Shown piece after piece: positions 18,598-20,937 of a stretch of DNA of 39,004 nt. Below the pieces are notes generated by a model that saw only the letters and a list, made by a program, of their open reading frames with translations, had not been told where the DNA came from and ran no database searches. The stretch is from sequence record OQ031074; one strand, given 5' to 3'. The stretch comes from Shigella phage SFP21A. The position numbers were made by a program, and so were the translations under genes. The first letter of the stretch is position 1. Every line of letters begins with the position of its first letter.

Positions 18598-19050
18598 ATG
18601 ATTTACACTAACGAACCAGCTAACGTCTTCTATGTGCTCGTGTCAGCCGCTCGTGCTGGACTGTCAGACATAGTGAACATGGGCCGTCAGTTAGACCTTA
18701 AGGCACTGCTACAAGCTGAGCCAGACTACTACGGTGTGCTCGAATGCACTGGGCTTACAGGATGCTACCGCGAGGAAGGGCAAGAGGTCGCCACTGAGGA
18801 GAGAACATATCGTGTGCGCTGTGAGTCCAAAGCTCAGGCTATCAACGTTGCGCGGCTGGCCTGCAATGACTTTGAGCAAGACTGCGTGATGGTCTACAAG
18901 TCTCAGACTCACACGGCTGGCCTGATGTTCTGCAAAGGTCTGGATGGCTACCGCACTGAGCGCCTGCACGGGTCATTCCAGCAAGTCGATGCGCCCAAGG
19001 GTGAATGCTTCACGAAAGACGCTGAAGGACGCTTCTGGGAGGTTGTGTAA
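18598..19050 (+). CDS. 0.3: S-adenosyl-L-methionine hydrolase/lyase (T3 gene 0.3-type anti-restriction protein)
   Basis: 150 aa; N-terminus MIYTNEPANVFYVLVSA.. and blocks TGCYRE, RVRCESKAQAINVARLACN, QDCVMVYKSQTHTAGLMF match the T3 SAMase as recalled; first gene after the sigma70 promoters; RBS AAAGGA. Confidence 0.75.
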   Translation: MIYTNEPANVFYVLVSAARAGLSDIVNMGRQLDLKALLQAEPDYYGVLECTGLTGCYREEGQEVATEERTYRVRCESKAQAINVARLACNDFEQDCVMVYKSQTHTAGLMFCKGLDGYRTERLHGSFQQVDAPKGECFTKDAEGRFWEVV

Positions 19051-19424: not shown

Positions 19425-20159
19425 ATGAACGCACACGATAAAGTAATCATGAATAACCTGATGTCTCAACTTCACGCTATAATCTGCGAGGAGTGCTACA
19501 AGATTGAAGACCCGTTCGCTGGCATAGCTGGTCAGCCACGCTGGGGAGCCTTTGAGATACTGGCCCGTGAGCATGGCTACAAGCTGTTAGGTCTGGGACA
19601 CTTCGCCGCTGCCTTTGAGCATGAGGACCTGCCGGGATATGCAATAAAGGTGGGCTTCAAGAAGGATGACTCAGGCGCTGCATATGCGGCCTTCTGCCGA
19701 GAGAATGAGGGTCTGGCTGGACTTCCGGTCATCCATCTGGTCAAGCGCTTCAGCAGGGCTTACATGGTGGCTATGGACAAGTACCGCTCACTGAATGACA
19801 TTGGTGGTGACTACTGCCGGGATGGTGAGACCTACGAGCAGCGAGTATTAAACGTGTCATGGCGTGTGGTCAACGCGATAATAGACCATTGCGAGCAACC
19901 GTCTGAGGCCCTGAGCTGGTGGCTGGACCAAGACGCACGGGCTGAGTTTGCACACGTCGAGGCTCAGTATATCAAGGACCTTGCGCAGACCGCTAAGAAG
20001 ATTAACAGTTTCTTCTACGGGCTGGCATCATTCGACACTCACCGCGCTAACGTGATGGTCGACAATAACGGGCGCTTGATAATCACGGACCCAGTGTCAT
20101 GGACCGCAATCGACCATCAAGATGAGCTGCAAGGAAAGCTGAATGCAATAGCTGAGTGA
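19425..20159 (+). CDS. 0.7: serine/threonine protein kinase (gp0.7 homolog), kinase domain only
   Basis: 244 aa from ATG 19425 (RBS AAGGAAAC); blocks GLGHFAAAF, IKVGFKKDDSGAAYAAFCR, GLASFDTHRANVMV, ITDPVSW match the T7 gp0.7 kinase domain; lacks the ~110-aa C-terminal shut-off region of T7 gp0.7. Confidence 0.8.
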   Translation: MNAHDKVIMNNLMSQLHAIICEECYKIEDPFAGIAGQPRWGAFEILAREHGYKLLGLGHFAAAFEHEDLPGYAIKVGFKKDDSGAAYAAFCRENEGLAGLPVIHLVKRFSRAYMVAMDKYRSLNDIGGDYCRDGETYEQRVLNVSWRVVNAIIDHCEQPSEALSWWLDQDARAEFAHVEAQYIKDLAQTAKKINSFFYGLASFDTHRANVMVDNNGRLIITDPVSWTAIDHQDELQGKLNAIAE

Positions 20160-20165
20160 TAGACG

Positions 20166-20190
20166 AGAGGCCACTACATCTAGTGGTCTC
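20166..20190 (+). ncRNA. stem-loop after kinase gene (possible RNase III site)
   Basis: GAGAGGCCACTACATCTAGTGGTCTC: stem CCACTA/TAGTGG shared with the hairpin at 14720; no U-tract, so a processing site is more likely than a terminator. Confidence 0.35.
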
Positions 20191-20224
20191 AAAGATTATT
20201 ACTCACAACATATAGAGGTGAACT

Positions 20225-20314
20225 ATGAACATTGGTTACTGGGTGTGCCTATCTCCGGTAATATTCCTGATAGCCTTCGGTCTTCTGGACGCAATCAAGC
20301 GAGGGTCATTATAA
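20225..20314 (+). CDS. hypothetical 29-aa hydrophobic peptide
   Basis: MNIGYWVCLSPVIFLIAFGLLDAIKRGSL; RBS GAGGTGA 7 nt upstream; stop overlaps the next start (TAATG). Confidence 0.3.
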   Translation: MNIGYWVCLSPVIFLIAFGLLDAIKRGSL

Positions 20315-20508
20315 TGGGCTGGCTACTTCTGGTCATCGGCTATGGTCTGATAGCTGCAATCCTTGCTAAGGACATAACCAAGGCACGTAAAGTCTACCGC
20401 TTCCAGTACGTATCACTGGGCCGCTGGACTGTAAGACAACCAAACGGACGCTTTATGCGCAACCTCGCAAACGTCTGGGACATCGCAACCTTAGGGAGTA
20501 AACTGTAA
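20314..20508 (+). CDS. hypothetical small membrane protein
   Basis: 64 aa with N-terminal TM segment (MGWLLLVIGYGLIAAILA) and basic tail; stop overlaps the next start (TAATG). Confidence 0.4.
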   Translation: MGWLLLVIGYGLIAAILAKDITKARKVYRFQYVSLGRWTVRQPNGRFMRNLANVWDIATLGSKL

Positions 20509-20834
20509 TGAGCAAGTCATATGGGATTAATCTGGTTCATGCGCTGGACGCAGACCTTAACCTACTTTCAGCACTGGCTACAGGCTACCGTCACGGGACC
20601 TCAAGTCACACCATTCGTCAGCAGCAGGAGCGCGACCGGGTGCTGCAAGCAAGACTCCGGGCCGAGGGCCAAAAGTCCGAGCTGATGTGTCTGGCGTATG
20701 GTGGACGACCTCGCACTGACGATGGTAAACTTCTGGTCTCAGGCTGGAGGGCGATAGACCAGCGGTCCGACATCAAGCATACATCCAAAGGAGACTTCAG
20801 CCATCTCCATGCTAACCCACTGATATGCAAGTAG
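20508..20834 (+). CDS. hypothetical early protein
   Basis: 108-aa ORF; RBS GGGAG upstream; no recognisable motif; directly upstream of the RNAP promoter/leader. Confidence 0.5.
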   Translation: MSKSYGINLVHALDADLNLLSALATGYRHGTSSHTIRQQQERDRVLQARLRAEGQKSELMCLAYGGRPRTDDGKLLVSGWRAIDQRSDIKHTSKGDFSHLHANPLICK

Positions 20835-20839
20835 TTTGG

Positions 20840-20862
20840 ACTAAACTATCACTAAAGGACTC
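20840..20862 (+). promoter_or_regulatory. phage RNAP promoter variant (..CTAAACTATCACTAAAGGAC), +1 about 20857, upstream of gene 1
   Basis: Exact 14-nt match to the upstream consensus, but CACTAAAGG instead of CACTATAGG (T3-like -2 base); followed by a structured leader. Confidence 0.5.
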
Positions 20863-20937
20863 AAGGTCGAAAGACTCTAAGTCAGGACTGAAGTGAAAGA
20901 CTTTAGTGATAAGACAACAGTTATAAGGACTTTAAGT

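What the first reader, a model, noticed from the sequence alone, without database searches (positions are those of the whole stretch)
20225..20834. Three-gene unassigned cluster between the kinase and RNA polymerase genes, two with membrane segments
Between the gene 0.7 hairpin and the gene 1 promoter lie three coupled ORFs: a 29-aa hydrophobic peptide, a 64-aa protein with one N-terminal TM helix and a basic tail, and a 108-aa soluble protein. T7 has no genes between 0.7 and 1. This is the variable early region where phages of this family often carry anti-defence or superinfection-exclusion accessory genes.
Basis: inference. Interest (0 to 1): 0.55.

Follow-up and report, generated by a model that had tools for sequence, protein, structure and literature searches.

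The report
Conserved early small-gene trio before RNA polymerase
The three small genes are real and sit between the kinase and RNA polymerase genes of this T7-like Shigella phage, but they are a conserved, already catalogued, function-unknown early module of its genus, not a newly acquired insertion.

Summary
The window is Shigella phage SFP21A, a T7-like phage of the genus Kayfunavirus. All three ORFs exist at the stated coordinates and are joined by TAATG stop/start overlaps.

- **29-aa ORF:** a real gene. It is exactly 29 codons in 16 alleles, with pN/pS 0.26 in frame. It is found in 94 phage records and is often unannotated.
- **64-aa protein:** a membrane-anchored member of the phage T3 gene 0.6 family (PHROG 2385, 356 phage records). 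It is not related to T7 gp0.6.
- **108-aa protein:** belongs to the small "gp0.38" family (PHROG 7066). That family has only 13 clusters among 1.84 billion proteins and no known fold.

Among 28 related loci, the 108-aa gene always sits about 100 nt before gene 1, and the 64-aa gene is intact in 26. The kinase is present in only 11, so the kinase is the variable part, not the cluster.

An RNase III-type hairpin bounds the module on its 5' side, and a phage-RNAP promoter separates it from gene 1.

No function is known, and nothing links the cluster to anti-defence or superinfection exclusion.

The parts
20153..20205 (+). RNase III-type processing hairpin at the 5' edge of the module. It has a long imperfect stem with internal loops, and its upper-stem core resembles the T7/T3 R1 sites.
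   Evidence: MFE -25.4 kcal/mol, z -4.5. It is conserved in every related locus whatever gene lies upstream. The consensus structure has 18 pairs; all variable pairs keep pairing, with one compensatory change. The AGGTCATC...GGTGGCCT core is shared with the annotated T3/T7 R1 sites.
20225..20314 (+). p29: a 29-aa hydrophobic micro-protein (MNIGYWVCLSPVIFLIAFGLLDAIKRGSL) with one predicted TM helix. By the positive-inside rule it is N-out/C-in.
   Evidence: ORF. KD maximum 2.19. All 16 distinct alleles in relatives are exactly 29 codons, with an SD and a stop overlapping the next start. pN/pS is 0.26 in frame against 1.26 and 1.54 out of frame. Found by tblastn in 94 phage records, many without annotation.
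20314..20508 (+). p64: a bitopic membrane protein of the T3 gene 0.6 family. It has an N-terminal TM anchor (about residues 2-19) and a very conserved basic 45-residue cytoplasmic tail.
   Evidence: PHROG 2385, E 4e-28. BLASTP to T3 gp0.6, E 4e-8. Annotated '0.6' in K1F and '0.71' with a TMHMM helix in CR8. 356 phage records. The tail is almost invariant, with pN/pS 0.19 against 0.59 for the TM part. AF2 pLDDT 71: helix 3-34, loop, helix 45-63. The 96-aa GTG extension is rejected because its frame has stops in 8 of 16 alleles.
20508..20834 (+). p108: a soluble basic helical protein of the 'gp0.38' family. Its conserved core is residues 27-108, including a strongly conserved but predicted-disordered C-terminal tail (HTxxGDFSHLHANPLICK).
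   Evidence: PHROG 7066, E 3e-42. 219 phage records. Alignment A1 shows a variable N-terminus and a conserved core. Only 13 representative clusters among 1.84e9 proteins. AF2 pLDDT 66, with 4 helices. No PDB or BFVD analogue outside its own family. pN/pS 0.27, and 0.16 for the C-tail.
20838..20862 (+). Phage-RNA-polymerase promoter immediately upstream of gene 1 (ggactaaACTATCACTAAAGGAC). It marks the 3' boundary of the module.
   Evidence: The consensus ACTATCACTATAGGrA occurs 10 times in the window against 0.25 expected. Most relatives have a perfect consensus at the same place. CR8 annotates a predicted promoter there.

Best explanation
This is the standard early-gene module that Kayfunavirus and Caroctavirus phages carry directly upstream of their RNA polymerase gene. 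Its order is: RNase III-type hairpin, (optional small hydrophobic ORFs, here p29), p64 (T3 gene 0.6 family), p108 (gp0.38 family), phage promoter, gene 1.

**Shown by the sequence and comparison**
- All three ORFs are genuine protein-coding genes under purifying selection.
- They are linked by overlapping stop/start codons.
- The module is conserved across the genus.
- p29 is facultative: it can be present, cleanly deleted, or replaced or accompanied by another hydrophobic ORF.

**Inferred from T7 biology**
- The module lies in the class I region, so host RNA polymerase transcribes it right after DNA entry.
- RNase III cuts at the hairpin, which leaves p29-p64-p108 as the 5' cistrons of the gene 1 mRNA.
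- Translational coupling gives co-ordinated synthesis of the three proteins.
- Once phage polymerase exists, the promoter at 20845 transcribes gene 1 without the trio.

**Inferred for the proteins**
- p29 and p64 insert into the inner membrane N-out/C-in.
- p64 uses an exchangeable TM anchor to present an almost invariant basic 45-residue tail at the cytoplasmic face, where it binds a conserved host (or phage) partner.
- p108 is a soluble helical protein that engages its partner through its invariant C-terminal tail.
- Together they are non-essential host-interaction (takeover or conditional-fitness) factors. Their target is unknown.
For: - ORFs, overlaps and SD motifs.
- p29 is real.
- p64 belongs to the T3 0.6 family with a TM anchor.
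- The p64 tail is far more constrained than its anchor.
- Natural variants keep the tail, or part of it, on a different N-terminus: ZG49 fusion and P0228.
- p108 family and its conserved C-tail.
- Module constancy against kinase variability.
- The hairpin is conserved and RNase III-like.
- Phage promoter before gene 1.
- Dispensability: p64 is missing in CR44b and truncated in ZG49, p29 is absent in many phages, and the first 25 residues of p108 are replaceable by an HNH insertion.
Against: - There is no expression or localisation data for any member, and no paper on function was found.
- Topology rests on hydropathy and the positive-inside rule only.
- Both AF2 models are of modest confidence (pLDDT 66 and 71).
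- A consensus phage promoter at 17112, upstream of the whole early region, could also transcribe the trio later in infection, so 'early only' is not established.
- Coupling suggests joint function, but p64 occurs without p108 in other genera, and an HNH gene can separate the two. A physical complex is therefore not implied.
Confidence: 0.6

Rival explanations
1. One reading: the trio is an accessory anti-defence or superinfection-exclusion cassette. The membrane proteins p29 and p64 would block DNA entry by a second phage or neutralise a membrane-acting host defence, with p108 as a soluble inhibitor.
For: - The trio lies in the early region, next to the SAM lyase anti-restriction gene and the kinase.
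- Small bitopic membrane proteins are a common form of exclusion factor (established knowledge, for example T4 Imm and HK97 gp15).
- p29 and the alternative hydrophobic ORF show presence/absence turnover.
- The genes are dispensable in some relatives.
Against: - p64 and p108 are near-universal and strongly conserved in the genus, which is unlike typical patchy counter-defence genes.
- There is no similarity to any catalogued family or fold.
- The conserved part of p64 is predicted to be cytoplasmic, not periplasmic, which is not where an entry block would be expected to act.
Confidence: 0.2
2. p108 substitutes for the missing C-terminal host-transcription shut-off domain of gp0.7. The kinase here is the kinase domain only, and p108 would act on host RNA polymerase or on transcription.
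For: - The kinase is 244 aa and aligns only to T7 gp0.7 residues 55-218.
- p108 is basic, helical and always adjacent to gene 1.
Against: - No similarity between the p108 profile and T7 or T3 gp0.7.
- p108 is also present in the 17 of 28 loci that have no kinase at all, so it is not tied to the truncated kinase.
Confidence: 0.1
3. p64 works like T7 gp0.6, which has been reported to bind the cytoskeletal protein MreB, because relatives label it 'gp0.6'.
For: - K1F, EcoDS1 and Dev2 name the homologue 0.6.
- T3 gp0.6 and T7 gp0.6A share a 13-residue C-terminal match.
- MreB sits at the membrane, where the p64 tail would be.
Against: - p64 against T7 gp0.6A gives no alignment.
- The T7 0.6A family is conserved in its N-terminal 45 residues and occurs in unrelated large phages, so it is a different family.
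- The shared name is positional only.
Confidence: 0.07
4. The 29-aa ORF is spurious, and the real second gene is the 96-aa GTG-initiated ORF (20218-20508), as annotated in phage Pisces (87 aa).
For: - The open frame exists in the window.
- A few gene callers chose an extended start, giving 85-88 aa.
Against: - The extension frame carries stop codons in 8 of 16 alleles and has pN/pS 1.5, while the p29 frame has pN/pS 0.26 and a fixed 29-codon length.
- Most called homologues are 64-67 aa.
Confidence: 0.03

Closest known systems
Phage T3 gene 0.6 protein (also phiYeO3-12/AP5 gene 0.6, K1F/EcoDS1 gp0.6, CR8 gp0.71; PHROG 2385)
   Same: Matches p64 in these respects:
- About 65 aa, with an N-terminal TM helix.
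- The conserved motif R(F/W)TVRxxNGRF...N..V..IAT.
- An early (class I) gene that follows an RNase III-type hairpin.
- Function unknown.
   Different: In T3, Berlinvirus and Przondovirus the gene lies between 0.3 and 0.7. Here, and in all Kayfunavirus and Caroctavirus phages, it lies after 0.7, directly upstream of p108 and gene 1. Identity to T3 is only 33%.
gp0.38 of EcoDS1 / CR8 gene 0.38 / CR44b gene 0.42 (PHROG 7066)
   Same: Same family as p108, in the same position immediately before the gene 1 promoter.
   Different: The window's copy carries a 26-residue N-terminal extension that is absent (83-86 aa forms) or expanded (130-139 aa forms) in other members. No member has a known function.
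T7 early region between gene 0.7 and gene 1 (RNase III site R1, E. coli promoter C)
   Same: The same genome neighbourhood. The hairpin core AGGTCATC...GGTGGCCT resembles R1.
   Different: T7 and T3 go straight from R1 to gene 1. Here three cistrons and a phage-type promoter are interposed.
Small membrane superinfection-exclusion proteins (T4 Imm, HK97 gp15)
   Same: Small, membrane-anchored and expressed early. This rests on established knowledge and is a resemblance in kind only.
   Different: No sequence or fold similarity was detected. The conserved domain of p64 is predicted to be cytoplasmic. No exclusion phenotype is known.

Membership tests
T3 gene 0.6 family (PHROG 2385) - for p64 | Significant sequence match to the family profile and to T3 gp0.6 itself | tested here: met
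   hmmscan E 4e-28 over residues 1-63. BLASTP to T3 gp0.6 gives E 4e-8 at 33% identity.
T3 gene 0.6 family (PHROG 2385) - for p64 | About 65 aa with a single N-terminal transmembrane helix | tested here: met
   64 aa, with KD maximum 1.93 over residues 1-19. TMHMM helices are annotated in the CR8 homologue and the AP5 homologue.
T3 gene 0.6 family (PHROG 2385) - for p64 | Location in the host-RNAP-transcribed early region of a Studiervirinae genome | tested here: met
   It lies between the kinase and gene 1. Homologues lie in the early region of T3, Berlinvirus, Przondovirus and CR8.
gp0.38 family (PHROG 7066) - for p108 | Significant match to the family profile, with the conserved core and C-terminal GDFSHLHANPLICK tail | tested here: met
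   hmmscan E 3e-42. Alignment A1. Foldseek hit to EcoDS1 Gp0.38 at 84% identity.
T7 gp0.6A family (reported MreB binder) - for p64 | Sequence similarity to T7 gp0.6A | tested here: not met
   No BLASTP alignment. The T7 0.6A family has a different conserved region and distribution. Only a 13-residue tail match to T3 gp0.6.
T7 gp0.7 C-terminal host shut-off domain - for p108 | Sequence or profile similarity to gp0.7 residues about 243-359 | tested here: not met
   hhalign probability below 1% against T7 and T3 gp0.7.
T3 gene 0.65 / Przondovirus ORF downstream of the 0.6 homologue - for p108 | Sequence or profile similarity (asks whether the p64-p108 pair equals the T3 0.6-0.65 pair) | tested here: not met
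   hhalign probability below 1%.
Known anti-phage defence proteins (PADLOC) and curated families (Pfam, NCBIfam) | Any profile match for p29, p64 or p108 | tested here: not met
   No hits at or near the thresholds.
Superinfection-exclusion / anti-defence accessory genes | A phenotype: blocks a second phage, or restores plating on a host carrying a defence system | not testable with these tools
   This needs deletion mutants and plating or exclusion assays.
RNase III processing sites of T7-group early mRNAs - for the hairpin 20153-20205 | A long imperfect stem-loop with an internal loop in an intergenic early position, conserved in structure | tested here: met
   Fold z -4.5. All 18 consensus pairs are kept across 12 relatives. 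The core is shared with the annotated T3/T7 R1 sites. Cleavage itself was not tested.

The most novel reading that the evidence does not exclude
The two membrane proteins, the widely overlooked 29-aa peptide p29 and the gp0.6-type p64, could form an inner-membrane device, possibly acting with p108. It would be made in the first minutes of infection and would either exclude superinfecting phages or disarm a membrane-acting abortive-infection or defence effector. This would give the first function to the T3 gene 0.6 family, which is present in more than 350 sequenced Studiervirinae genomes.
Probability: 0.15. Interest if true: 0.55.

Novelty: already known. Interest (0 to 1): 0.22.

Why it matters
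The practical value is mostly for annotation.

- **Overlooked gene:** the 29-aa ORF is a real, selected micro-protein gene that about half of the related GenBank records fail to annotate.
- **Misleading name:** the '0.6' label on the 64-aa protein refers to T3 gene 0.6. It does not refer to the MreB-binding T7 gp0.6, so that function should not be transferred.
- **Layout of the genus:** the constant part of the Kayfunavirus early region is this trio plus gene 1, while the kinase and the SAM lyase are the variable parts.
- **Open question:** the T3 gene 0.6 family is among the most widespread uncharacterised early genes of T7-like phages used in therapy. A function for it would be useful, but nothing here points to a particular one.

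Tried and rejected
1. **Insertion relative to close relatives.** Rejected. The module is conserved across 28 related loci and in 219-356 phage records.
2. **96-aa GTG-extended p64 instead of p29 plus p64.** Rejected on stop codons and pN/pS.
3. **p64 homologous to T7 gp0.6A (MreB binder).** Rejected.
4. **p108 equals the detached gp0.7 C-terminal shut-off domain.** No similarity.
5. **p108 equals T3 gp0.65 or the Przondovirus ORF downstream of the 0.6 homologue.** No similarity.
6. **p29 as a duplicate of the p64 TM segment (shared IGYG motif).** No alignment.
7. **Family searches.** Pfam, NCBIfam and PADLOC found nothing.
8. **Structure route for p108.**
   - The PDB profile search found nothing significant.
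   - Foldseek against PDB and BFVD found only its own family.
   - The afdb50 library was unavailable.
9. **Exhaustive HMMER profile search for remote p108 relatives.** Only 13 clusters, all from the same family.
10. **Second RNase III-like structure between p108 and gene 1.** The 121-nt fold was not significant (z -0.9). An 11-bp inverted repeat that includes the promoter core gives z -2.4, but it is specific to the window's subclade.
11. **Literature.** Searches for gp0.38, K1F or T3 gene 0.6 function, expression data and exclusion found no functional study.

Full report
**Identity of the window.** The 108-aa product is 100% identical to 'hypothetical protein SFP21A_020 [Shigella phage SFP21A]', from a contig of 39,004 bp. 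DNA of 19300-21100 matches 195 phage records at 80-95% identity, nearly all of the genus Kayfunavirus (K1F-like T7 relatives). The assembly is circularly permuted, so the early region lies at about 17-24 kb.

**Check of the observation.** The three ORFs are at the stated coordinates:
- 20225-20314 (29 aa, ATG);
- 20314-20508 (64 aa, ATG);
- 20508-20834 (108 aa, ATG).

Both junctions are TAATG overlaps, and each start has an SD-like motif. Hydropathy supports one TM segment in p29 (maximum 2.19) and one in p64 (1.93, residues 1-19), and none in p108 (1.07). p64 has pI 11.0 and p108 has pI 9.6.

Upstream is a gp0.7-type kinase (PHROG 15752, E 4e-112). Downstream is the T7-type RNA polymerase. 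T7 annotates nothing between 0.7 and 1.

**Is the 29-aa ORF a gene?** Yes.
- In the related loci fetched there are 16 distinct nucleotide alleles. Every one is exactly 29 codons, with an ATG, an upstream SD, and a stop that overlaps or abuts the p64 start.
- Pooled pN/pS is 0.26 in the p29 frame, against 1.26 and 1.54 in the other two frames.
- The frame that would extend p64 to the 96-aa GTG ORF has internal stops in 8 of 16 alleles.
- tblastn finds p29 in 94 phage records, and a large share of them have no feature annotated over it.
- p29 is facultative. It is precisely deleted in some phages, so that its SD is fused directly to the p64 ATG. In others it is replaced or preceded by a different 53-55-aa hydrophobic ORF.

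**What is p64?**
- It matches PHROG 2385 (E 4e-28).
- It is a homologue of phage T3 gene 0.6 (E 4e-8, 33% identity; alignment).
- K1F annotates it as '0.6'. CR8 annotates it as '0.71' with a TMHMM helix. A paper on the T3-like phage AP5 also notes a TM domain in gene 0.6 (PMC4283147).
- It occurs in 356 phage records, including Przondovirus, Berlinvirus, and Pectobacterium and Erwinia phages. In those genera, and in T3, it lies upstream of 0.7.
- The C-terminal 45 residues are almost invariant, while the TM segment varies. pN/pS is 0.19 for the tail against 0.59 for the TM part.
- AF2 gives a long helix (3-34), a loop and a second helix (45-63), at pLDDT 71.
- The flanking charges imply N-out/C-in (inference).
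- It is not related to T7 gp0.6A. There is no alignment, and the T7 0.6A family has a different conserved region and distribution. The MreB story attached to T7 gp0.6 should therefore not be transferred.

**What is p108?**
- It matches PHROG 7066 (E 3e-42), the family of 'Gp0.38' of EcoDS1, CR8 0.38 and CR44b 0.42.
- It is present in 219 phage records.
- An exhaustive profile search of 1.84 billion representatives finds only 13 clusters.
- The conserved core is residues 27-108. The N-terminus is absent, present or expanded in different members.
- The AF2 model (pLDDT 66) has four helices and a disordered C-terminal tail. That tail is nevertheless the most constrained part, with pN/pS 0.16.
- It is unrelated to the gp0.7 C-terminal domain and to T3 gp0.65.

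**Is the cluster an insertion?** Relative to T7 and T3, yes in layout. Those phages go from the R1 hairpin straight to gene 1. Relative to close relatives, no. Across 28 distinct Kayfunavirus and Caroctavirus loci:
- the p108 core always ends 101-156 nt (usually 101-107 nt) before gene 1;
- p64 is intact in all but CR44b, where it is absent, and ZG49, which has a 47-aa p29::p64-tail fusion;
- the kinase is present in only 11 of the 28 loci.

CR8, from a different genus, has the same three-gene layout, 0.705-0.71-0.38, followed by a predicted promoter. In this genus the cluster is the constant part and the kinase is the variable part.

**Expression signals.**
- The hairpin at 20153-20205 folds at -25.4 kcal/mol (z -4.5).
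- It is present at the 5' edge of the module in every locus, whatever lies upstream.
- It keeps all 18 consensus pairs across relatives.
- It shares the AGGTCATC...GGTGGCCT core with the annotated T3 and T7 R1 RNase III sites.
- Between p108 and gene 1 lies a phage-polymerase promoter, ggactaaACTATCACTAAAGGAC. Its consensus occurs 10 times in the window against 0.25 expected. Most relatives have a perfect consensus there.

From T7 biology I infer the following. Host polymerase transcribes the trio early. RNase III trims the transcript at the hairpin, so the trio forms the 5' part of the gene 1 mRNA. The phage promoter later transcribes gene 1 without the trio. A consensus phage promoter at 17112 could still read through the early region, so 'early only' is not proven.

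**Function.**
- Nothing links the trio to a known activity. There are no Pfam, NCBIfam or PADLOC hits, and no functional paper was found.
- The best-supported reading is a conserved, non-essential early host-interaction module. It would consist of two small inner-membrane proteins, one presenting an invariant basic cytoplasmic tail, plus a soluble helical protein with an invariant C-terminal tail.
The near-universal conservation and the predicted cytoplasmic location of p64's conserved domain weigh mildly against it.

**Verdict.** The genes belong to already catalogued, uncharacterised families, so this is an ordinary feature of the genus. The useful by-products are three:
- validation of an under-annotated 29-aa gene;
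- the correction that '0.6' here means T3 gene 0.6, not T7 gp0.6;
- a clear map of the module's boundaries.

Noticed in passing
window 20838-20909: Gene 1 (RNA polymerase) is preceded by a promoter for the phage's own polymerase, which T7 and T3 lack at this position. In the window's subclade the promoter has a TATA-to-TAAA change. Its core is also one arm of an 11-bp inverted repeat (20847-20857 / 20899-20909; fold z -2.4). Most relatives have a perfect consensus and no repeat.
   Followed up: partly
L003 2530-2952 (IMM-002); also L012, L015, L016/L042: An HNH ('endonuclease VII') ORF is inserted exactly at the p64/p108 junction in several relatives. In some of them, such as IMM-002, it replaces the first 25 or so codons of p108. 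This looks like a homing-endonuclease hot spot.
   Followed up: partly
L008 2600-2743 (Escherichia phage ZG49): A natural in-frame deletion fuses p29 residues 1-28 to the last 19 residues of p64, giving a 47-aa ORF. Intact p64 is therefore dispensable in that phage.
   Followed up: yes
protein P0228 (38.7-kb phage contig): A 66-aa variant carries the conserved p64 C-terminal domain on an unrelated, non-hydrophobic N-terminus. A precomputed Pfam tag, PF26807, was not reproduced by my scan.
   Followed up: partly
L033 2006-2173, L037, L023, K1F (L050 1840-2007): An alternative 53-55-aa ORF (…GWLAVDI.FSPVG.VRG.L.W.GLAG), hydrophobic enough by eye for two TM segments (not computed), sits upstream of p64. 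It either replaces p29 or lies in front of it.
   Followed up: partly
window 19425-20159: The gp0.7-type kinase is the kinase domain only: 244 aa, aligning to T7 gp0.7 residues 55-218. It lacks the T7 C-terminal shut-off region. The gene is absent from 17 of 28 related loci, and the SAM lyase (18598-19050) was likewise undetected in most of those loci.
   Followed up: partly
search results: Several Kayfunavirus genomes at about 85-92% identity are deposited as Staphylococcus, Enterococcus or Acinetobacter phages (MBBL139, IME_EF3, EFA-1, vB_Aba_01KA). The host labels are probably wrong, or the samples contaminated.
   Followed up: no
window 20286-20315: A sigma-70-like match (TGGACG-18-TATAAT, 10 of 12) lies inside p29. 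Its -10 hexamer is formed by the p29/p64 stop/start overlap. That sequence is not conserved in relatives, so the match is probably chance.
   Followed up: partly
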